From NCBI GenBank assembly GCA_016839805.1, contig JAEOTO010000032.1, positions 202,564 through 266,563 on the forward strand: a stretch of 64,000 nt of DNA, given 5' to 3'. Below, piece by piece: positions 6,029 to 62,354 of this stretch. The position numbers were made by a program, and so were the translations under genes. This stretch comes from Candidatus Hermodarchaeota archaeon. Lineage in GTDB: Archaea; Asgardarchaeota; Hermodarchaeia; Hermodarchaeales; Hermodarchaeaceae. The number at the start of each line of letters is the position of its first letter. The first letter of the stretch is position 1. The notes below the pieces were generated by a model, which saw only the letters and a list, made by a program, of their open reading frames with translations, was not told where the DNA came from and made no database searches.

Positions 6029-6125
6029 TGGCGCGGAGTAGGGGATTTGAACCCCTGCGACCAGATGGTCACTGGATAACCCGATTTATCTCGAGTCCAG
6101 CGCGTTACCGCTCCGCCAACTCCGC
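6029..6125 (-). tRNA. tRNA-Ser(CGA), class II, with a 12-nt intron at the canonical 37/38 site; CCA encoded
   Basis: Hand fold of the minus strand: GCGGAGT-TG-GCGG-AGCGGTAA-CGC-G-CTGGA-CTCGAGA-[TAAATCGGGTTA]-TCCAG-TGACCATCTGGTCGC-AGGGG-TTCAAAT-CCCCT-ACTCCGC-G-CCA. Confidence 0.85.
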
Positions 6126-12710: not shown

Positions 12711-12830
12711 TGGTAGCGGGGGGTTGATTTGAACAACCGATCTCGGGGTTTCCCAAGGGGATTTATGAGCCCCGCGGGATATCAGGTCTCGGTGAGGAAC
12801 ACCAAGATATCCTGGCTACCCCACCCCGCT
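12711..12830 (-). tRNA. Initiator tRNA-Met(CAT) with two introns (D loop and anticodon loop); CCA encoded
   Basis: Minus strand: AGCGGGG-TG-GGGTAGCCAGG[..~28 nt..]ATCCC-G-CGGGG-CTCATA[~14 nt]A-CCCCG-AGATC-GGTTG-TTCAAAT-CAACC-CCCCGCT-A-CCA. A1:U72 and three G-C pairs next to the anticodon loop are initiator hallmarks. Confidence 0.8.
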
Positions 12831-21139: not shown

Positions 21140-21244
21140 TGGTGCGGCTTCCGGGATTTTCGGTGACTTTACAAAGCAGTCAAGCATTCGAACCCGGGTC
21201 TCAGGCGTGGGAGGCCTGGGTCATAACCACTAGACAAAAGCCGC
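21140..21244 (-). tRNA. tRNA-Gly(CCC) with a ~30-nt intron in the T loop; CCA encoded
   Basis: GCGGCTT-TT-GTC-TAGTGGTTAT-GAC-C-CAGGC-CTCCCAC-GCCTG-AGAC-CCGGG-TTCGAA[TGCTTGACTGCTTTGTAAAGTCACCGAAAA]T-CCCGG-AAGCCGC-A-CCA. Confidence 0.8.
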
Positions 21245-25906: not shown

Positions 25907-28900
25907 CTAATTCGCTTCAATGGAAATAAATTCGTTGTTAATCTCACTTTCGAGGTCTTGGAAGTATTTCAGCATTACATCAAGATTCTCATGAGGTTGA
26001 ACTTTCATACGTGCAATTTTTCCTACTACGGGGAGTGCTATAATCCGACGGAGTGCAGTTCCCTCATCAATTGCTTGCCGCATACGGTTCCAGAATTCCA
26101 TGATAATCTTTAGCATCCAATAGCTTTTGGTCTCAGGGCAATAGGTATCAATGGGATGGAGTGCTGATTGCATTAGGTAGTCTTCCTTAACCATACGTGC
26201 TGCCTCTAAAATCGCACGTTCACGTTCAGGTAAAGCATCTGGACCGACTAGTTGGACGATTTCACGGAGTTCTTTGTCATGTTGAAGAATTGATAGCGCT
26301 TCTTCAGTAATTTCGGGCCAATCATTTCCCATCTTGCCTTGGTACCATGTTGCTAATTCGTCTTTGTATAATGAATAGCTTTGTAGATAGTTAATAGCTG
26401 GGAAGAATCGCCTTGAAGCCATATCCTTATCAAGTGCCCAAAAGACCTTCGTTATCCTTAATGTTGACTGAGTAACTGGTTCAGAAAAGTCGCCACCTGC
26501 TGGTGAGACGGCTCCTGTGACTGTTACACTCCCTATTCGCGTTTCTGAGCCAAGTGTTTCCACACGGCCTGCGCGTTCATAGAATTCAGCTAATCGGCTT
26601 CCAAGATACGCTGGGTATCCCTCTTCACCTGGCATTTCCTCTAATCGACCAGAGATTTCACGTAGTGCTTCAGCCCAGCGGGACGTGCTATCCGCCATCA
26701 GAGCAACGTCATATCCTTGGTCTCTGAAATACTCTGCTATGGTAATTCCAGTGTATATTGAAGCTTCTCTAGCCGCAACTGGCATATTACTTGTATTAGC
26801 AACAAGAATTGTTCTTTCCATTAGCGATTTTCCACTTTTGGGGTCCTTAAGCTTAGGAAAGTCCTCAAGGACTTCTGTCATTTCATTTCCTCTCTCTCCA
26901 CAGCCAACATAGACAATGATATCAGCATCAGCCCATTTCGCTAATTGATGAAGAGTTACAGTATTATGAAGTGTAACGGGTAGAACACCACCAACGAAAT
27001 TATGAGTTTTTTCCACCGTGATGTCATAAACTGGAACGTTTGTTTCAGTAATTTCTATTTTCTTAATTCGGTCAAAGTAGACTTGCTCGAGGATGTTCAA
27101 AATACTTTGTAGTTGTTCTCTTGTTTCTTGAGAGACTTGGGTATTGTTCGCATCTATTATCTCAAAGATAAGTCGTAATGTGTCGTTAGATGGTGTTTCG
27201 TCTAATCTTGTATAATTATCTAAGCGTAAACCACTCATTTTTCTGAAAACATCGTGACCTTGAGGAGTTTTTCCTTCTGTTTTGAGAGAAAGTAATAGTT
27301 GTTGGTTAACAGGAACGACATCTAAGCCAACGAAGTGTGTAATTTCTTGTGATGCATATTCATATAACCGTTGAATTTTGATGTAGGGATATACTCCATT
27401 ATCCTGCATGCATTTTGAAATACGTTCGGCAAATTTCCCATCAATTTCAATTACATACGAGTCATTCTTCTGTCTAGCCCGGTAAATCAGTCCAAGTCGT
27501 GTTAAGAGGTACCCTAAATCGCTATGAAGTTGATGGCTTGCCGTACTTAGTTGAAGGGAATATTTCGAGAAATGTCCATCACCAGCAATATATCCAGTAA
27601 GAAAGTGAATGAAGTAATCTTCTGGTGCAATTCGAATACATGAAGGAACACGAACGGTGTGGGATTTATCATCTCTTGGAAGATCAAGGGAGATTAGGAA
27701 TTTCTTGAGGCTGGTATTTCGAAGATAGGCATATGGAGTTCTATCAGATGAATCTTGATCGATTTTTGGTTCTAGACCAAACACAATTAAGGATAATTCT
27801 TTGAAACGATACAAAATTTTTGGAGAAGAATTGTATAAGTAAATCCCTTGATATTTTCCTTTGAAATGTCCATCAGCCACAAATAATCCAAGCCATTCTG
27901 AAAGTTCCTTAGTAAGCTTGGTTGGAATGCGAAAGGGTTCTGACCCTCTTTCTGCTTTAACGAGAGCAACAGGTATTCGAGGTTTACCTACGAATTTCAC
28001 TAATTTATCAAGAAATCTGAGCGTGGGTTTATTTTTTCCACTCTTATAACCAATGAGGACATCATAAGAAACTTCTAATTTCTTTGACAGAACTTTTAGT
28101 GTCATCTGTTTTTGGAGACTCTGAATCAACTCTTGCATCATTTGAATAGCTTGTGGGTCGACTACACGCAAAGAGAGATCTATTTCATAAGAGTCAAATT
28201 GGGGGATTTGACCGGGTATGTTTAGTTTTCTTGGTACGACGAGGTGATCACCTACATTTAATTGCTGAGCTTCAACTTCTTCGATTATTTCACCATTAAA
28301 TCGGAAGAGCTTGTGAACTGGTGTAACCTCTACAGTTCGTCCAGAACGAGTAGTAATCTTCACAATCGCAGGAGTTGTTCCTCTGTATATGTGAGTTGCT
28401 TTAGCGGGAATGTATCTTGCTCCATCAAATGATAGGATTCGAAGAGGAGTTTTCAGACTAATAAGTGTCTCATCTTCTGAATCTTGTTCAATAAATTCCC
28501 CTTGTTGTAAGAATTTCTTGTATAAGACTTGAATTGGTGTGGTGTCGCCATTCGAAAGTAAAACAGGAGTATCACCTGTCACACATTTTCCGGTGCCAAA
28601 CCCTCCAGGAATGGCTCCAGTTCCACCTTTTGCAACTGGGAAGAAGGTATCAATGACACGTTGGCCTGTGTATAAGGGTACTTCGGTGCTAATTTTTGTT
28701 TTATAGGGTCGACCAATACGTACGGGCCATCGTTGGGTTAGTTTAATGTCACTTTTACCCGAAGGGGTTTGAATCTGTGCGATGACGTCCTTGATAGTGT
28801 AATCACCGCCATTGACTATCTGCGTTACTTTGCCCTCAATCCCAGGCGGTACAAGGATGCGGTGAAGAAATACGCTCGTTTCTTGTACCGTTCCTATTAC

Positions 28901-29305
28901 ATCACCAGCCGCGACTGTTGCACCCTTTGTGACAATGGGCTTAAATGTCCATGGTTTATCCTCTGGGAGCGGTGGTGCAGTAACTCCTCGTGTAATGAAG
29001 TCTCCGATCTGGTTTTTGATACTGGGGAGTGGTCGTTGAATTCCATCAAAAATAGAGCCAACTAAGCCTGGACCAAGTTCAACGTCAAGAGAAGTTCCAG
29101 TAGCAACAACCGGTTCTCCCGGTTTTAATCCAGATGTTTCTTCATAAACTTGAATATAGGCTCGATCACCTACAACTCGATTGACTTCACCAATTAATTC
29201 CTCTGTCCCAACTTTACAGACCTCAAACATAGTAACTCCAAAAAGTCCATCAGCTTCGATGAGTGGACCCGCAATTCGTTGTATATTTCCTGTTCGTGTA
29301 GACAT
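25907..29305 (-). CDS. atpA: A/V-type ATP synthase catalytic subunit A, interrupted by an intein
   Basis: The ORF track starts at 29338; ATG at 29305 gives [16 protein letters not shown], typical of AtpA. The P-loop GGFGTGK is split from [10 protein letters not shown]...GERGNEM by 541 aa. The C-terminal half has [22 protein letters not shown]. Confidence 0.95.
26963..28585 (-). mobile_element. Intein in AtpA P-loop with LAGLIDADG homing-endonuclease domain
   Basis: Begins [10 protein letters not shown] (Cys1, residue 252 of the track ORF) and ends VTLHN. The +1 residue is Thr, which completes GKT. Block B is TPVHKL. LAGLIDADG-type motifs [10 protein letters not shown] and [11 protein letters not shown]. 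541 aa by hand count. Confidence 0.9.
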
Positions 29306-29392
29306 AATCAACCGCCTTTTTTGAAACTCTGCTAACAAGTGTCACTATCAGCTATACTCAATTGACAAAAAGTTTATGGTAATTATCCAGTT

Positions 29393-29716
29393 TCAAAATC
29401 CTTCTAGTTCTACTCCAATTGCACGTTTGACTAGGCGTCGAAGTGGGCTTTCTTTCTTTGCAAGGCGACCACTTTTTTCAGGAATTTCCACAATTACTGG
29501 ATATGGACGCTGAGAAATCTCCTCAATATTCTCTCGGATATCTTCTGCCAACGGTTCAGTGATGATTATTATCGAAACATCAGAATCACGCGAAAAATCG
29601 AGTAAAGCTCTCCGAGTTGATGCAGGATCAGTTGGAATATCTGATTTGAGAATACCTGCTAACCTAAATCCCACAACAGTATCGATGTCACCAATTATGG
29701 CAATTTTATCAGTCAT
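29393..29716 (-). CDS. atpF: A/V-type ATP synthase subunit F
   Basis: The internal ATG at 29716 gives a 107-aa protein MTDKIAIIGDIDTVVGFRLAG..., typical of AtpF. The longer track ORF (to 29848) overlaps the upstream gene. Confidence 0.85.
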   Translation of the reverse strand: MTDKIAIIGDIDTVVGFRLAGILKSDIPTDPASTRRALLDFSRDSDVSIIIITEPLAEDIRENIEEISQRPYPVIVEIPEKSGRLAKKESPLRRLVKRAIGVELEGF

Positions 29717-30506
29717 TTTGATTCGTCTCTTTTTTTTCGTTGAGAGGAGATTTTTGCAGAGTGTGCAATCGACGTAACATCGCTTCAATTGATTCCATTC
29801 GAGATATCGCCAAGGGAACCCGTTCTCTGTTTGCGAGCTCGATTGCAAGATAATCGATTTGTTCTACACCATGTAATACAAAAAGACTTGGTTTTATTTC
29901 CCCCTTCACTGCAACTAGGGGCGATCTACCTGTTGATACATGGACAAGAATAAGAGCTCGGTCAGTCGTTGCTTCAAAAAGTTTGAGAAATCCAACGCTA
30001 GACAATACGTCAAGTGCTTTTGTAGTGTTTACCACCAAGTATCCGAGAATTTCTCGGTCGAGAAGCTCTTCACCAGCCACAACCTGACCCCGGATACATT
30101 CAATGAAATCTTGTACTTTTACACTTTGGCTGAACTCTCTAATATCAATAATAATGTTCGTGGGTATCTCAACTCCCATTAAACGTTGAAAGGCATTGAC
30201 TATTTGCCCTCCATTTTGTTCATCTAACATAATGATGGCTTCTACAAAGCGTTTAATGGTTTTAGCACCCGGCGATTGGCGACGCCCGCTCTCATAATCA
30301 CTGATAACCGAAGGAGACACACTTCGTTCTCGCCCCTCCGAATCTGTATAGACTAGTGACTCAGCCAATTGAATTTGTGGAATGTGAAACATTTCACGCC
30401 ATTTACGCATAACACGACCTGGGTTTTCCGATAATGAAATCTCGCCTGCAATACGTCGAGCAAGACGCTGTCTAATTTGTGCCGCCACAGGCATAGCTAC
30501 ACGCAC
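29709..30506 (-). CDS. XRE-type HTH domain protein with uncharacterised C-terminal domain, translationally coupled to atpF
   Basis: 265 aa. HTH region HIPQIQLAESL...VSPSVISDYESGRRQSPG. Its stop (29711-29709) overlaps the atpF start (29716-29714) by 8 nt. Confidence 0.7.
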   Translation of the reverse strand: MRVAMPVAAQIRQRLARRIAGEISLSENPGRVMRKWREMFHIPQIQLAESLVYTDSEGRERSVSPSVISDYESGRRQSPGAKTIKRFVEAIIMLDEQNGGQIVNAFQRLMGVEIPTNIIIDIREFSQSVKVQDFIECIRGQVVAGEELLDREILGYLVVNTTKALDVLSSVGFLKLFEATTDRALILVHVSTGRSPLVAVKGEIKPSLFVLHGVEQIDYLAIELANRERVPLAISRMESIEAMLRRLHTLQKSPLNEKKETNQND

Positions 30507-30612
30507 TCAACCATACTTTAAGTGCTTTACGCAATTTAACGAAATATACTAGATTTCTAACAAAATTGACGAATTTTTATGAGAAAAAAAACGCTTTCAG
30601 GTAGAGGAAAAA

Positions 30613-30813
30613 TGGTGGGCCGACGGGGATTTTCCCAAGATGGCAATTACCATCTAGCTTTGAACCCCGGATCTCACGGATTGTCGCTATGGGTTTGGAC
30701 TGACCGCATAGTCCCGAACCGCGAATCTTCGGCGGTTAGAAGGAACTGGTCCTTTCACTTATACCATGCTAGTCCGAAAAAGTGAATTTTTCGGTTATCT
30801 AGACCATCGACCC
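30613..30813 (-). tRNA. 201-nt multi-intron tRNA gene, probably tRNA-Arg(TCT); CCA encoded
   Basis: Acceptor GGGTCGA / TCGGCCC-A-CCA pairs 7/7 (one G-U). T arm CGGGG-TTCAAA[29 nt]T-CCCCG. The best fold has D stem GTCT/GGAC and anticodon arm AGTTC-CTTCTAA-[21 nt]-GGACT. About 124 nt of intervening sequence lies at four or more sites. The anticodon call is tentative. Confidence 0.65.
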
Positions 30814-30841
30814 ATTGCTGCAGTCTACCGTCAAATACTGA

Positions 30842-31681
30842 TTAAAATTTTTCTTCCTTGGTTTTTCTCCTCGATTGAAGGTCTTCGAGTCTTCCCAATG
30901 GCGTGTGATCAAGCAGAAAGATTTCCGAATTATTCATTGAAAGGTGTCGAAACAAGGGGATTCCCAGATGATTTTCTGTTACCTCACTATTAAGGACGTG
31001 ACCTCTAAGCAGATCAAGGAAAGCTGGTAAAATTAGTACCCTCATATTAAGCAACTGATCAACGTTTGCCCTCCTTGAGTCAATAGTTGCTTTTCCCAAC
31101 CATTTTTTCATTGCATCAATTATAGTTGGTTTCCATTTTGCCTTAACCCAAACCCGGTGAGTAGTAATCCGGTTTTTTAGAGATGAAATGGCAATAACTG
31201 GATGAATATGGGCCATTAGAAGACTACTACAATCGAGGATGTCTTGTGTGGGTTGGGCATGACCGTGAATAAGAAATACTTGCTGGGAATCAAAGCTGAG
31301 TTTGAAACCGGAGGCTGGGATAATCTGGGTGTCATCGGGAACGACCAATTCTATGTCGGCATCATGATTTCCCCGCACAATGGTTAATGATGCCTTTTGT
31401 TTAATTTGGTTTAACAATACAGCAACCTTATGGAACTCTTGCGGTGAAAAATCACGAATTGAGTGTTTTAAATCGCCTAAAATAATCACTTCACTAGGCT
31501 TGACATTGGCAACCAATTGTTCAAAACGTTGAATAATCCGTTCTGCAAGGTTTATTGAATATTGATCTTTCTTAAAGAGAGTGCGCTCGTAACCGATGTG
31601 TAAATCTGCGACGACAAGGATACGACGCGATTTTTCTTGAAGTAATAGTGCGGGTTCGTTTTTTATTAGTTTCAAATGCAT
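30842..31681 (-). CDS. Calcineurin-like metallophosphoesterase (MPE/PdeM-like)
   Basis: ATG at 31681 (MHLKLIK...) gives 279 aa; the track ORF extends to 31792. Motifs VADLHIGYE, GDLKH, GNHD, HGH, HIH. Confidence 0.8.
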   Translation of the reverse strand: MHLKLIKNEPALLLQEKSRRILVVADLHIGYERTLFKKDQYSINLAERIIQRFEQLVANVKPSEVIILGDLKHSIRDFSPQEFHKVAVLLNQIKQKASLTIVRGNHDADIELVVPDDTQIIPASGFKLSFDSQQVFLIHGHAQPTQDILDCSSLLMAHIHPVIAISSLKNRITTHRVWVKAKWKPTIIDAMKKWLGKATIDSRRANVDQLLNMRVLILPAFLDLLRGHVLNSEVTENHLGIPLFRHLSMNNSEIFLLDHTPLGRLEDLQSRRKTKEEKF

Positions 31682-31744
31682 AATATCTCTAAAGTATTCA
31701 CTTGATAGGTATTTTTTTCTTTGTGATATGAAACAGGTGTAGCA

Positions 31745-32179
31745 ATGAAAGACGAAATCAACGTTGTGATTCAAACAATTCGAAAAAAACAAGGCATTTC
31801 AGGCTCAGAACTTGTTGTACTTGCACAGTTTTTTGGAGATCGGTTTTGGAAGGCTCTTCAGGCCGTAGTTAATGATTTAGTGAAAAAATACACCTTTGAA
31901 CCAAGCGGAAGAGATGCATGGATTGTCGTTGGTAAGGCACGGGACTACCGCGTTTTATCTGAGGTTTATTGTGATTGCGACGATTTTTACATCAACGTAA
32001 TTGTGAAACGCAGCGCTGATCTTTGTTACCATATTCTAGCAAAAATCCTCGCCGAGGCCCTTGGGGTGTTTTCTGAAATTTGTGTGGATGATATGATGTA
32101 TGATACGCTCCGCGATGAATGGGAGGCAATTCCTGAACCTCAATCAACTAGAAAAGGCAAGAAGCGGAGCATTGAGTAA
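31745..32179 (+). CDS. SWIM zinc-finger protein
   Basis: 144 aa. Canonical CxCx(n)CxH: CDCDDFYINVIVKRSADLCYH. Divergent from the MPE gene with a 63-bp spacer. Confidence 0.7.
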   Translation: MKDEINVVIQTIRKKQGISGSELVVLAQFFGDRFWKALQAVVNDLVKKYTFEPSGRDAWIVVGKARDYRVLSEVYCDCDDFYINVIVKRSADLCYHILAKILAEALGVFSEICVDDMMYDTLRDEWEAIPEPQSTRKGKKRSIE

Positions 32180-62038: not shown

Positions 62039-62172
62039 GCAGGGGTGCCAGAGCTTGGTCAATCCAGTGAACGGCTTATAGATAATTGCTATTCGTTCCA
62101 TGGACCATAAGGGCTGGGTTCAGGCCCCAGTGGCGTAGGCCTGCGCGGGTTCGAATCCCGTCCCCTGCACCA
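62039..62172 (+). tRNA. tRNA-Leu(CAG), class II, with non-canonical intron(s) in the D-arm/anticodon-stem junction region; CCA encoded
   Basis: GCAGGGG-T-GCC-AGAGCTTGGTCAA..GGC-[CTTAT...ATAAG-bracketed ~37 nt]-G-CTGGG-TTCAGGC-CCCAG-TGGCGTAGGCCTGC-GCGGG-TTCGAAT-CCCGT-CCCCTGC-A-CCA. 134 nt versus about 88 expected. Confidence 0.8.
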
Positions 62173-62217: not shown

Positions 62218-62354
62218 TGGCGGGCTCGGCGGGACTTGAACCCGCGACCCTCGGGTGTCTTTAGAAGACTGCTAGAAGCTCTTCTCTAAAAGCCCGATGC
62301 TCTGACCTTACCCACGCCGGAAACCCGGTACGTGTCTGGCTAAGCTACGAGCCC
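62218..62354 (-). tRNA. tRNA-Lys(TTT) with two introns (29 nt in D loop, 30 nt at 37/38); CCA encoded
   Basis: GGGCTCG-TA-GCTTAGCCAG[ACACGTACCGGGTTTCCGGCGTGGGTAAG]GTCAGAGC-A-TCGGG-CTTTTA[GAGAAGAGCTTCTAGCAGTCTTCTAAAGAC]A-CCCGA-GGGTC-GCGGG-TTCAAGT-CCCGC-CGAGCCC-G-CCA. Confidence 0.85.

What the first reader, a model, noticed from the sequence alone, without database searches (positions are those of the whole stretch)
30613..30813. 201-nt tRNA gene whose exons appear split by four or five intervening segments
The ends pair perfectly as an acceptor stem (GGGTCGA / TCGGCCC, then A-CCA) and a T arm is clear, yet they are 201 nt apart. The only coherent cloverleaf I can build is as follows. D stem GTCT/GGAC. 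C26. Anticodon stem AGTTC. Loop CTTCTAA (UCU, Arg). 3' strand GGACT. Variable AGATC. T arm CGGGG-TTCAAAT-CCCCG. This requires excising several segments. About 30 nt comes from the D loop, holding an 8-bp hairpin CCGAAAAA/TTTTTCGG, plus about 9 further extra nt there. 21 nt follows position 38 (hairpin ACCGC/GCGGT, with GAAG complementary to the anticodon-loop CTTC). About 35 nt lies between the anticodon stem and the variable loop (CTATG/CATAG hairpin). 29 nt is in the T loop. To my knowledge the described maximum is three introns per archaeal tRNA gene, so this would be exceptional. An alternative anticodon reading (CCA in GTCCAAACC) fits worse.
Basis: partly seen in the sequence, partly recalled or inferred. 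Interest (0 to 1): 0.75.

Follow-up and report, generated by a model that had tools for sequence, protein, structure and literature searches.

The report
Four-intron tRNA-Pro gene in an Asgard archaeon
The 201-base stretch is a real proline tRNA gene (anticodon CGG, not arginine as first read) from a Hermodarchaeota-type Asgard archaeon, cut into five pieces by four short introns of the usual archaeal kind; four introns exceeds the commonly quoted maximum of three but has already been tabulated for other Asgard archaea.

Summary
It is tRNA-Pro(CGG), not tRNA-Arg(UCU), and it has four introns, not five.

- **Origin.** Syntenic loci place the window in Hermodarchaeota (Asgard).
- **Uninterrupted relative.** One relative (L010) has a 77-nt tRNA-Pro(CGG) at the same place. 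It differs from the spliced window sequence only in the acceptor stem and D arm.
- **Intron counts.** Of the 17 distinct interrupted orthologs, 11 have four introns and 6 have three.
- **Intron positions.** I1 is 30 nt in the D loop (17/17a). I2 is 33 nt in the D stem (22/23). I3 is 32 nt at the canonical 37/38 site. I4 is 29 nt in the T loop (59/60).
- **Splice motifs.** Each junction fits a bulge-helix-bulge motif, strict for I2 and I3 and slightly relaxed for I1 and I4.
- **Conservation.** Exons are nearly invariant (1 of 77 sites varies). Introns vary at 94 of 124 sites, with compensatory changes in their helices.
Its "anticodon arm" lies inside intron 2 and is not conserved.
- **Novelty.** Reviews and the tRNAscan-SE 2.0 paper give three introns as the maximum. 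A 2024 supplementary table already lists four-intron tRNAs in Freyarchaeia and Atabeyarchaeia, so this is a new member of a known kind.

Splicing itself is inferred, not shown.

The parts
30613..30813 (-). Whole tRNA-Pro(CGG) gene: 201 nt, five exons totalling 77 nt (CCA included) and four introns totalling 124 nt
   Evidence: Sequence read. Orthologs. The in-silico spliced product is called tRNA-Pro(cgg), 77 nt, by ARAGORN.
30797..30813 (-). Exon 1 (gene positions 1-17): acceptor 5' strand GGGUCGA, U8 G9, D-stem 5' strand GUCU, D loop AGAU
   Evidence: Only position 4 (U/C) varies among the 11 four-intron orthologs; position 7 (A/G) also varies across all 17. Both changes keep the acceptor pair. 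The D arm matches the uninterrupted D arm of the Atabeyarchaeia ortholog.
30767..30796 (-). Intron 1 (positions 18-47, 30 nt), D loop between nucleotides 17 and 17a. Relaxed HBh' motif: H = CUAG 12-15 / CUAG 42-45, bulges AU|A and CA|U, and an 8-bp inner hairpin after one mismatch
   Evidence: BHB table. H is paired in 11 of 11 copies, and 4 of 8 hairpin pairs show double compensatory changes. The intron is precisely absent in 6 orthologs (L002, L009, L014, L026, L030, L032).
30761..30766 (-). Exon 2 (positions 48-53): UGGUAU, i.e. D loop G18 G19 U20 A21 and U22
   Evidence: Invariant in all 17 orthologs. The same string is contiguous in Atabeyarchaeia, and in Odin and Baldr after their single intron.
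30728..30760 (-). Intron 2 (positions 54-86, 33 nt), D stem 22/23. Strict BHB: H = UGGU 48-51 / GCCG 81-84, bulges AU|A and AA|G, h' 55-57/78-80, plus an inner hairpin 60-64/70-74.
   Evidence: H is paired in 17 of 17 copies. The h' pairs 55:80 and 56:79 switch G-C to A-U in L001, L014, L027 and L032. RNAalifold finds H and h' independently. 24 of 33 sites vary.
30713..30727 (-). Exon 3 (positions 87-101): GAU (23-25), U26, anticodon stem 5' strand CGCGG, loop UUCGGG. The anticodon C34 G35 G36 is at window 30714-30716
   Evidence: Invariant in all 17 orthologs and identical in the uninterrupted L010.
30681..30712 (-). Intron 3 (positions 102-133, 32 nt), canonical position 37/38. hBHBh' motif: outer helix = anticodon stem, H = UUCG 96-99 / CGAC 128-131, bulges GG|A and AA|U, inner hairpin CUAUG/CAUAG
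   Evidence: 3 of 5 h' pairs show double changes. The junction is fixed by L010, which reads TTCGGG|TCCGTG.
30659..30680 (-). Exon 4 (positions 134-155): U38, anticodon stem 3' strand CCGUG, variable loop AGAUC, T-stem 5' strand CGGGG, T loop UUCAAA
   Evidence: Invariant in the four-intron set. The single change across all 17 (C145U) is compensated by G190A.
30630..30658 (-). Intron 4 (positions 156-184, 29 nt), T loop 59/60. BHB with outer helix = T stem, H = UUC(A) 150-153 / (G)GAA 179-182 (three pairs plus an A.R mismatch), bulges AA|G and AA|U, and an 8-bp inner hairpin
   Evidence: 6 of 8 h' pairs show double compensatory changes. The junction is fixed by L010 (TTCAAA|TCCCC) and by L002, whose intron ends in C.
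30613..30629 (-). Exon 5 (positions 185-201): U60, T-stem 3' strand CCCCG, acceptor 3' strand UCGGCCC, A73, encoded CCA (30613-30615)
30841..30850 (-). A/T-rich box AAATTTTAAT about 31 nt upstream of the mature 5' end: a likely archaeal TATA/BRE promoter (inferred). It overlaps the stop codon of the upstream ORF
   Evidence: Read directly. Similar boxes (CATTTTAAGAG) sit at the same distance in the orthologs, and L010 and L011 have A/T-rich boxes there too. Not tested functionally, and the conservation may partly reflect the coding sequence.
30608..30612 (-). A run of five T directly after CCA: a likely archaeal oligo-T terminator (inferred)
   Evidence: Read directly. T-rich trailers are also present in the orthologs.

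Best explanation
This is the functional gene for tRNA-Pro(CGG) of a Hermodarchaeota-type Asgard archaeon, interrupted by four endonuclease-type (bulge-helix-bulge, BHB) introns.

**Proposed mechanism**
1. The gene is transcribed as a precursor of roughly 200 nt from an A/T-rich box about 31 nt upstream, ending at the T run after CCA.
2. At each exon-intron junction the precursor forms two 3-nt bulges separated by a 4-bp helix.
3. The archaeal tRNA splicing endonuclease cuts after the second nucleotide of each bulge. In Asgard archaea this enzyme is the broad-specificity (alpha-beta)2 type with the L1 loop.
4. An RtcB-type ligase joins the exons.
5. The product is a 77-nt tRNA: GGGUCGA UG GUCU AGAUUGGUA UGAU U CGCGG UUCGGGU CCGUG AGAUC CGGGG UUCAAAU CCCCG UCGGCCC A CCA.

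Introns 3 and 4 use the anticodon stem and the T stem as their outer helices, so they can be recognised in the primary transcript. Intron 2 gains its outer helix (U17-A88, A16-U89, G15.U90) only once intron 1 is removed, so intron 1 probably goes first.

**Shown:** gene identity, exon and intron boundaries, BHB geometry, and purifying selection on exons and on intron helices.

**Inferred:** transcription, the enzymes involved, actual splicing, and its order.
For: 1. **Orthology and an uninterrupted copy.**
   - The flanking regulator gene retrieves syntenic loci from Hermodarchaeota/Promethearchaeota genomes. Each carries the same gene about 100 nt upstream.
   - L010 has it uninterrupted. Rfam scores it as tRNA at 55.9 bits and ARAGORN calls it Pro-cgg.
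   - Its sequence from position 23 to the CCA end is identical to window exons 3-5.
2. **Spliced product.** Removing positions 18-47, 54-86, 102-133 and 156-184 gives a 77-nt tRNA-Pro(cgg).
3. **Discrete introns.** Among the 17 distinct interrupted orthologs, 11 have four introns and 6 lack exactly intron 1.
4. **BHB geometry.**
   - The rule 'cut after the second bulge nucleotide' reproduces the L010 junctions for I3 and I4 and fits the window's tRNA-Ser intron.
   - At all four junctions H is 4 bp, or 3 bp plus one mismatch for I4, flanked by 3-nt bulges.
5. **Covariation.**
   - 94.2% of cells are paired, against 39-51% when partners are slid by 1-3 columns.
   - 17 pairs show double changes, and 0 of 500 shuffles reach the observed values.
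   - RNAalifold independently recovers the I2 and I3 BHBs and the I4 hairpin.
6. **Selection.**
   - Exons vary at 1 of 77 sites and introns at 94 of 124. Mean pairwise identity is 99.6% against 63%.
   - Across all 17 orthologs, 4 of the 77 exon columns vary. Each change keeps its pair: U.G to C-G, A-U to G.U, and C-G to U-A. (Position 16 also differs, A versus C, between copies with and without intron 1; alignment A1 hides this.)
7. **D-arm junctions.** The predicted mature D arm GUCUAGAUUGGUAUGAU is identical to the contiguous D arm of Atabeyarchaeia tRNA-Pro(CGG), and to the Odin and Baldr orthologs after their single intron.
8. **Enzyme.** Asgard archaea encode the (alpha-beta)2 endonuclease with the L1 loop, which is associated with processing of relaxed and non-canonical BHBs (PMC5829648).
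Against: - No RNA data exist. Transcription and splicing are inferred.
- ARAGORN and Rfam find nothing in the unspliced region.
- The single-sequence minimum-free-energy fold of the window precursor (-67.8 kcal/mol) is not the BHB model (-55 to -59.5 kcal/mol).
- Intron 1 has almost no outer helix and has a mismatch next to its 5' bulge. Intron 4 has an A.R mismatch in H. Both are relaxed motifs.
- The intron 2 boundary could instead be 53-85, giving A22 as in L010. This changes one nucleotide of the product but not the intron count.
- I could not check whether a second tRNA-Pro(CGG) exists elsewhere in the genome, or whether the endonuclease genes are present in this organism.
Confidence: 0.9

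Rival explanations
1. One reading: a tRNA-Arg(UCU) gene with four or five inserts, including one after position 38 and one between the anticodon stem and the variable loop.
For: The hand-built splice folds into a cloverleaf that ARAGORN accepts as tRNA-Arg(tct).
Against: - Its D-stem 3' strand, anticodon stem and loop lie in a segment where 15 of 22 positions vary among orthologs. The proposed anticodon is not conserved.
- The segments it discards (GAUUCGCGGUUCGGG and UCCGUG) are invariant, and they are contiguous exon sequence in the uninterrupted ortholog L010.
- It needs a 9-nt insert, which is too short for a BHB.
- I found no BHB at its 38/39 junction by hand modelling.
Confidence: 0.01
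2. A decaying pseudogene: a former tRNA-Pro gene that accumulated insertions and is no longer processed into a working tRNA.
For: - Standard finders do not see it.
- Two of the four motifs are relaxed.
- The rest of the genome could not be searched for a second copy.
Against: - 77 exon nucleotides are kept almost unchanged across 17 distinct lineages whose introns differ at about 37% of positions.
- Stem changes in exons are compensated.
- Intron helices that matter only for endonuclease recognition are maintained by compensatory change.
- Gene position and the upstream A/T box are conserved.
- A metagenome scan with the exon 4 string found only this interrupted form.
Confidence: 0.04
3. Correct gene and intron count, but different boundaries for intron 2 (positions 53-85, between nucleotides 21 and 22). 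The mature D-stem 3' strand would then be AGAU as in L010.
For: - L010 reads GGTAAGATT, and this splice also gives tRNA-Pro(cgg) with a fully paired D stem.
- A85 and A86 make the two readings differ by a single nucleotide.
Against: - No 4-bp helix with 3-nt bulges can be drawn for these cut sites.
- The 53|54 and 86|87 sites give a strict BHB conserved in 17 of 17 sequences and found by RNAalifold.
- U53 is invariant, while position 86 varies (A/C), as expected for an intron base.
- Atabeyarchaeia, Odin and Baldr orthologs have U at position 22.
Confidence: 0.05

Closest known systems
Four-intron tRNA genes of Freyarchaeia and Atabeyarchaeia (Valentin-Alvarado et al. 2024, Nat Commun, Supplementary Data 4; PMC11291895)
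   Same: - Same superphylum (Asgard).
- Short introns at canonical and non-canonical positions.
- More than half of tRNA genes carry several introns.
- Individual genes are listed with four: Freya Arg-TCT and Ile2-CAT (four by both methods), Freya Leu-GAG and Atabeya-2 Trp-CCA (four by R2DT), and Atabeya-2 Lys-TTT (four by tRNAscan).
   Different: - Different lineage (Hermodarchaeota) and different isotype. In those genomes tRNA-Pro(CGG) has only one intron. In Atabeyarchaeia-1 it sits at 27/28.
- The published cases are table entries from tRNAscan-SE and R2DT, with no junction-by-junction or comparative analysis and no mention of the number four in the main text.
- Here the four-intron state is backed by an uninterrupted ortholog and by covariation.
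Three-intron tRNAs of Thermoproteales, e.g. Pyrobaculum calidifontis tRNA-Glu(UUC) and P. islandicum tRNA-Pro(UGG) (Sugahara et al., as reviewed in PMC4390854)
   Same: - BHB or relaxed-BHB introns at the D arm, 37/38 and T loop of one gene.
- A broad-specificity (alpha-beta)2 endonuclease.
- One intron may need to be removed before a neighbouring BHB can form (PMC8450103).
   Different: - One intron fewer.
- Different phylum (Thermoproteota) and thermophiles.
- Here two separate introns sit within 6 nt of each other in the D arm.
Multi-intron nuclear tRNA genes of the red alga Cyanidioschyzon merolae (PMC3728597)
   Same: - Up to three BHB-type introns in the D arm, at 37/38 and in the T loop.
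- Ordered removal was shown by RT-PCR.
   Different: - A eukaryotic nucleus.
- Maximum of three introns.
- Some genes are also permuted; this gene is collinear.

Membership tests
Archaeal endonuclease-spliced (BHB) tRNA introns / multi-intron tRNA gene | Removing the inserts leaves a canonical cloverleaf tRNA of normal length | tested here: met
   The 77-nt product is called tRNA-Pro(cgg) by ARAGORN. Exons 3-5 are identical to the uninterrupted L010, which Rfam scores as tRNA at 55.9 bits.
Archaeal endonuclease-spliced (BHB) tRNA introns / multi-intron tRNA gene | Each junction lies in a 3-nt bulge, the two bulges are separated by a 4-bp helix, and the cut falls after the second bulge nucleotide (hBHBh', or relaxed HBh'/hBH) | tested here: met
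- I2 and I3 are strict.
- I4 has 3 bp plus an A.R mismatch in H, with both flanking helices present.
- I1 has a perfect H and an inner helix but almost no outer helix (HBh').

The cut rule was verified against the L010 junctions.
Archaeal endonuclease-spliced (BHB) tRNA introns / multi-intron tRNA gene | Exons are conserved, introns are free to vary except for motif helices, which covary | tested here: met
   Variable sites: 1 of 77 in exons against 94 of 124 in introns. 17 pairs show double changes, 94.2% of cells are paired, and 0 of 500 shuffles reach the observed values.
Archaeal endonuclease-spliced (BHB) tRNA introns / multi-intron tRNA gene | The host encodes a splicing endonuclease able to cut non-canonical or relaxed motifs, plus an RtcB-type ligase | not tested
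   Not searched for in the window. The literature reports (alpha-beta)2 EndA with the L1 loop across Asgard archaea (PMC5829648).
Archaeal endonuclease-spliced (BHB) tRNA introns / multi-intron tRNA gene | The mature spliced RNA and excised (often circular) introns are detectable | not testable with these tools
   No transcript data are available.
tRNA-Pro (isoacceptor CGG) | Anticodon C34 G35 G36 in a 7-nt loop with U33 and G37, a discriminator A73, and orthology to a recognised tRNA-Pro | tested here: met
   The spliced loop is UUCGGGU, A73 is present, and ARAGORN calls Pro-cgg for both the spliced product and L010. The syntenic Odin and Baldr genes and the Atabeyarchaeia tRNA-Pro(CGG) about 1.5 kb upstream of the same regulator carry the anticodon loop YUCGGGA.
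   The proposed arm lies in intron 2, and 15 of its 22 non-shared positions vary among orthologs.
Self-splicing group I / group II introns | A ribozyme core of hundreds of nucleotides that matches Rfam intron models | tested here: not met
   The inserts are 29-33 nt. No Rfam hit appears even at E<=10.
Split or permuted tRNA genes | Exons are encoded at separate loci or in permuted order | tested here: not met
   All five exons are collinear within 201 nt.

The most novel reading that the evidence does not exclude
One orthologous gene, tRNA-Pro(CGG) next to the same regulator gene, records stepwise intron accretion and loss within Asgard archaea.
- Zero introns in one Hermodarchaeota lineage.
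- One intron in Odin and Baldr (D loop 16/17) and in Atabeyarchaeia (27/28).
- Three or four introns in a Hermodarchaeota clade.

The four-intron state is fixed and under selection. The D loop appears to be hit independently at adjacent sites (16/17 and 17/17a). There may also be an obligatory splicing order, because intron 2's outer helix exists only after intron 1 is removed. If so, this locus would be a natural series for testing how and why BHB introns are gained, and whether nested introns act as an ordered maturation checkpoint.
Probability: 0.3. Interest if true: 0.55.

Novelty: new member of a known kind. Interest (0 to 1): 0.4.

Why it matters
- **Annotation gaps.** Standard tRNA finders miss most tRNA genes in this Asgard window. 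Five of eight were missed or mis-called, so tRNA complements of such genomes are under-annotated.
- **A well-supported four-intron case.** An uninterrupted ortholog, precise presence/absence of intron 1 and covariation back it, matching the highest count so far tabulated for any tRNA gene.
- **A test case.** It can be used for intron-finding software and for studies of endonuclease specificity, splicing order and intron gain and loss in the closest archaeal relatives of eukaryotes.

It does not reveal a new kind of element or mechanism.

Tried and rejected
1. **Standard finders on the raw region.** ARAGORN, and Rfam at both gathering and E<=10 thresholds, returned nothing relevant.
2. **Single-sequence folding.** The minimum-free-energy structure keeps the acceptor stem and the I1 and I4 hairpins but not the I2 and I3 BHBs. 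It was not used as evidence.
ARAGORN accepts it, but conservation rejects it.
4. **Alternative registers for intron 2.**
   - Helix UGGU 48-51 / ACCG 78-81, with cuts at 53|54 and 83|84, would give a 12-nt D loop.
   - Helix 54-57/78-81 taken as h', with H 47-50/82-85, would cut at 87|88 and destroy the D stem.
   - Cuts at 52|53 and 85|86 have no supporting helix.

   All three were rejected in favour of H 48-51/81-84, which gives a strict BHB and the same D arm as other Asgard orthologs.
Comparing the aligned orthologs by eye, neither is conserved. The second competes with the real anticodon stem.
6. **Blind iterative BHB removal plus ARAGORN on single sequences.** It gave many contradictory products (SeC and Val for this gene, Pyl/Asp/Gly for the Lys gene). 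Single-sequence modelling is therefore not discriminating.
7. **Neighbour-joining tree from intron sequences, to decide gain or loss of intron 1.** The two lineages lacking intron 1 do not group together, but the tree rests on about 150 columns and I do not rely on it.
8. **Literature searches for 'four introns' in archaeal tRNAs.** No main-text description turned up. The precedent was found only in a supplementary table.
Full report
**1. What is at the coordinates.**

The feature lies on the minus strand. Read from window 30813 down to 30613, the 201 nt begin GGGTCGA and end TCGGCCC-A-CCA. ARAGORN and Rfam at gathering threshold find four and three tRNAs in the window respectively, but nothing here. 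A permissive Rfam scan of 30300-31100 gives only noise.

The region sits in a 335-nt gap between a metallophosphoesterase ORF (30842-31792, minus strand) and an HTH regulator ORF (29709-30506, minus strand). An A-type ATPase F subunit, an Lhr-type helicase and an RPA-like protein lie nearby. The two short plus-strand ORFs that overlap the feature are mechanical listings only.

**2. Relatives decide the reading.**

Searching species-representative genomes with the downstream regulator protein returned 25 loci. The closest are Hermodarchaeota/Promethearchaeota (Asgard) genomes at 73-94% protein identity. In each of these the same interrupted gene sits about 100 nt upstream of the regulator.

One more distant Hermodarchaeota genome (L010, 64% identity) has an uninterrupted 77-nt gene at that place: GGGCCGATGGTCTAGCACGGTAAGATTCGCGGTTCGGGTCCGTGAGATCCGGGGTTCAAATCCCCGTCGGCCCACCA. 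Rfam scores it as tRNA at 55.9 bits and ARAGORN calls it tRNA-Pro(cgg).

Laying it on the window sequence shows where the true parts lie:
- The anticodon arm is CGCGG-UUCGGG...U-CCGUG.
- The anticodon is CGG.
- The D-stem 3' strand lies at positions 86-89, or at 53 plus 87-89 (see section 4).

A scan of metagenome contigs with the exon 4 string gave seven more loci, five of them new sequences. In total there are 17 distinct interrupted orthologs. Eleven have four inserts and six lack exactly the first insert.

**3. Gene model.**

Positions are in the 201-nt minus-strand sequence. The window coordinate equals 30814 minus the position.

| Part | Positions | Length | Site in the tRNA |
|---|---|---|---|
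| Exon 1 | 1-17 | 17 nt | acceptor 5' strand to D loop |
| Intron 1 | 18-47 | 30 nt | D loop, 17/17a |
| Exon 2 | 48-53 | 6 nt | D loop to U22 |
| Intron 2 | 54-86 | 33 nt | D stem, 22/23 |
| Exon 3 | 87-101 | 15 nt | D stem to anticodon loop |
| Intron 3 | 102-133 | 32 nt | canonical 37/38 |
| Exon 4 | 134-155 | 22 nt | anticodon loop to T loop |
| Intron 4 | 156-184 | 29 nt | T loop, 59/60 |
| Exon 5 | 185-201 | 17 nt | T loop to encoded CCA |

Removing the four introns gives a 77-nt sequence that ARAGORN calls tRNA-Pro(cgg) with a normal cloverleaf.

**4. Splice motifs.**

I fixed the geometry rule on cases where the junction is independently known. These were I3 and I4 against L010, and the window's tRNA-Ser intron. 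The rule is that two 3-nt bulges lie on opposite strands, separated by a 4-bp helix H, and each cut falls after the second bulge nucleotide. Applied to all 17 sequences, it gives the following.

- **Intron 3.** A strict hBHBh' motif. The outer helix is the anticodon stem, H is UUCG/CGAC-type, the bulges are GG|A and AA|U, and the inner helix has five or more pairs.
- **Intron 4.** The outer helix is the T stem. H is UUC/GAA plus an A.R mismatch. The bulges are AA|N and AN|U, and the inner helix has 8 bp.
- **Intron 1.** H is CUAG/CUAG, perfect in 11 of 11 copies. The bulges are AU|W and NN|U. The 8-bp inner helix follows one mismatch, and there is almost no outer helix. This is the relaxed HBh' form.
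- **Intron 2.** H is U48-G49-G50-U51 paired with R81-C82-Y83-R84, paired in 17 of 17 copies. The bulges are AU|W and A(A/C)|G. The inner helix is 55-57/78-80, followed by a further hairpin. The outer helix (U17-A88, A16-U89, G15.U90) exists only after intron 1 is removed.

I first considered three other registers for intron 2; they are listed under what was rejected. Three observations settle it:
- RNAalifold on the alignment independently predicts H 48-51/81-84 and h' 55-56/79-80.
- U53 is invariant while position 86 varies between A and C.
- The resulting mature D arm, GUCU-AGAUUGGUA-UGAU, is letter for letter the contiguous D arm of the Atabeyarchaeia-1 tRNA-Pro(CGG). It is also that of the Odin and Baldr orthologs after their single D-loop intron.

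The alternative boundary 53-85 would give A22 as in L010. It changes one nucleotide of the product and cannot be fully excluded without RNA data.

**5. Is it under selection?**

Counting pairs of the full precursor model on alignment A1 gives these results:
- 94.2% of cells form a standard pair, against 39-51% when partners are slid by 1-3 columns.
- 17 pairs have changes on both sides. By helix: 4 of 8 in the I1 hairpin, 2 of 3 in the I2 h', 3 of 5 in the I3 h', and 6 of 8 in the I4 h'.
- None of 500 column shuffles reaches the observed values.

Among the eleven four-intron orthologs, 1 of 77 exon sites varies against 94 of 124 intron sites. Mean pairwise identity is 99.6% for exons and 63% for introns. 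In alignment A1, four exon columns vary across all 17 orthologs, and each change keeps its pair: U4.G to C-G, A7-U to G.U, and C49-G65 to U-A. Position 16 also differs, A versus C, between copies with and without intron 1. A1 hides this because it misplaces exon 1 of the copies lacking intron 1.

This pattern is the signature of a working tRNA gene whose introns must stay recognisable. It is not the pattern of a pseudogene.

**6.

- **Correct:** the ends, the T arm with its 29-nt insert, the 30-nt D-loop insert, the variable loop and the CTATG/CATAG hairpin.
- **Wrong:** the isotype and the middle of the cloverleaf. GGAC, AGTTC and CTTCTAA lie within intron 2. ACCGC is the 3' end of intron 2, and GCGGT is the true anticodon stem plus U32.

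Of the 22 positions it called exon that fall in my introns, 15 vary. The 23 positions it called intron that are exon in my model are all invariant. ARAGORN accepts its splice as Arg-tct. A blind BHB-plus-ARAGORN enumeration yields SeC and Val readings for this gene. Single-sequence modelling therefore cannot discriminate between readings here. Only the comparison could.

**7. Mechanism (inferred).**

An A/T-rich box (AAATTTTAAT, 30850-30841) lies about 31 nt upstream of the mature 5' end. It overlaps the stop codon of the upstream ORF. Similar boxes occur at the same distance in the orthologs, including L010 and Odin. A T5 run follows CCA.

The precursor would be trimmed at its ends, cut at eight sites by the splicing endonuclease, and ligated. 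According to Kaneta et al. 2018 (PMC5829648), Asgard archaea carry the (alpha-beta)2 endonuclease with the L1 loop, which is associated with cleavage of relaxed and non-canonical motifs. I did not look for these genes in this organism.

Because the outer helix of intron 2 forms only after intron 1 is excised, intron 1 probably goes first. tRNAscan-SE 2.0 describes such dependence for Thermoproteales, and ordered removal was shown experimentally in C. merolae.

**8. Comparison with what is known.**

The Kanai review (PMC4390854) and the tRNAscan-SE 2.0 paper (PMC8450103) state that archaeal tRNA genes hold up to three introns. C. merolae also reaches three.

However, Valentin-Alvarado et al. 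2024 (PMC11291895) report the following:
- 92-95% of tRNA genes in Atabeyarchaeia and Freyarchaeia contain introns.
- More than half of the tRNA genes have several introns.

Their Supplementary Data 4 has columns for a fourth intron. It lists Freyarchaeia Arg-TCT and Ile2-CAT (four by both tRNAscan-SE and R2DT), Freyarchaeia Leu-GAG and Atabeyarchaeia-2 Trp-CCA (four by R2DT), and Atabeyarchaeia-2 Lys-TTT (four by tRNAscan).

Four introns is therefore not unprecedented. It equals the highest number tabulated so far. In those genomes tRNA-Pro(CGG) has one intron. The Hermodarchaeota gene is thus a new member of a known kind, with unusually good comparative support.

**9. Evolutionary note.**

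The same locus shows:
- zero introns in L010;
- one intron in Odin and Baldr, at 16/17;
- one intron in Atabeyarchaeia, at 27/28 about 1.5 kb from the regulator;
- three or four introns in the other Hermodarchaeota.

The Odin/Baldr intron and Hermodarchaeota intron 1 sit one nucleotide apart, and by eye share nothing beyond the CUAG-type helix. A rough tree from the intron sequences does not group the two lineages that lack intron 1. Both have C16 where copies with intron 1 have A16, so gain versus loss remains open.

**10. Verdict.**

This is a real, selected, four-intron tRNA-Pro(CGG) gene. It is a new member of a known kind and of moderate interest.

Noticed in passing
window 62218-62354 (minus strand): ARAGORN's 'tRNA-Pyl (cta)' at 62218-62295 is the 3' part of a 137-nt tRNA-Lys(UUU) gene. 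It has a perfect hBHBh' 30-nt intron at 37/38 and a further insert of about 30 nt in the D loop, whose exact boundaries are ambiguous.
   Followed up: partly
window 62039-62172 (plus strand): A 134-nt gene missed by ARAGORN and Rfam. It is probably tRNA-Leu(CAG), with a long variable arm and an insert of about 46 nt in the D arm. It lies divergently next to the Lys gene.
   Followed up: partly
window 21140-21244 (minus strand): A 105-nt gene missed by the finders. It is tRNA-Gly(CCC) with a single 30-nt T-loop intron at 59/60: H is 4 bp and the outer helix is the T stem. This is the same site as intron 4 of the Pro gene. Removing it gives a 75-nt tRNA-Gly(ccc).
   Followed up: partly
window 12711-12830 (minus strand): A 120-nt gene starting AGCGGGG, with CUCAUAA in the anticodon region. 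It looks like an initiator tRNA-Met with a D-arm insert and a 14-nt anticodon-loop intron. It sits just downstream of the uninterrupted tRNA-Ile(GAU) and tRNA-Ala(CGC) genes. The boundaries were not resolved.
   Followed up: partly
window 6029-6125 (minus strand): By BHB geometry, tRNA-Ser reads as anticodon CGA with a 12-nt 37/38 intron in a bulge-helix-loop form: H is CUCG/CGGG and there is no inner helix. ARAGORN's call was 'aga'. All eight tRNA genes seen in the window encode CCA, and six of the eight are interrupted.
   Followed up: partly
window 25907-29338 (minus strand): The ATPase catalytic A subunit ORF is 1143 aa, about twice the usual length. A large insert begins right after the P-loop (GTGK|[10 protein letters not shown]...) and ends ...VTLHN|T. 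This looks like an intein with a homing-endonuclease-like middle part. It was read by eye and not tested against domain libraries.
   Followed up: no
L011 3085-3193 and L017 3557-3665: Odinarchaeota and Baldrarchaeota have a tRNA-Pro(CGG) with one 32-nt D-loop intron at 16/17, one nucleotide from the intron 1 site of the Hermodarchaeota gene. It lies several hundred nt upstream of the same regulator gene. ARAGORN misses both copies.
   Followed up: partly
L012 2432-2528 (Atabeyarchaeia-1 chromosome CP147779.1): tRNA-Pro(CGG) lies about 1.5 kb upstream of the regulator homolog. It has one 23-nt intron at 27/28, as in the published table, and no encoded CCA. Its uninterrupted D arm GTCTAGATTGGTATGAT equals the mature D arm predicted for the window gene.
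   Followed up: partly
window 30841-30850 (minus strand): The presumed TATA/BRE box of the tRNA gene overlaps the last codons and the stop codon (AAA TTT TAA) of the upstream metallophosphoesterase ORF. Its conservation among orthologs cannot be credited to promoter function alone.
   Followed up: no
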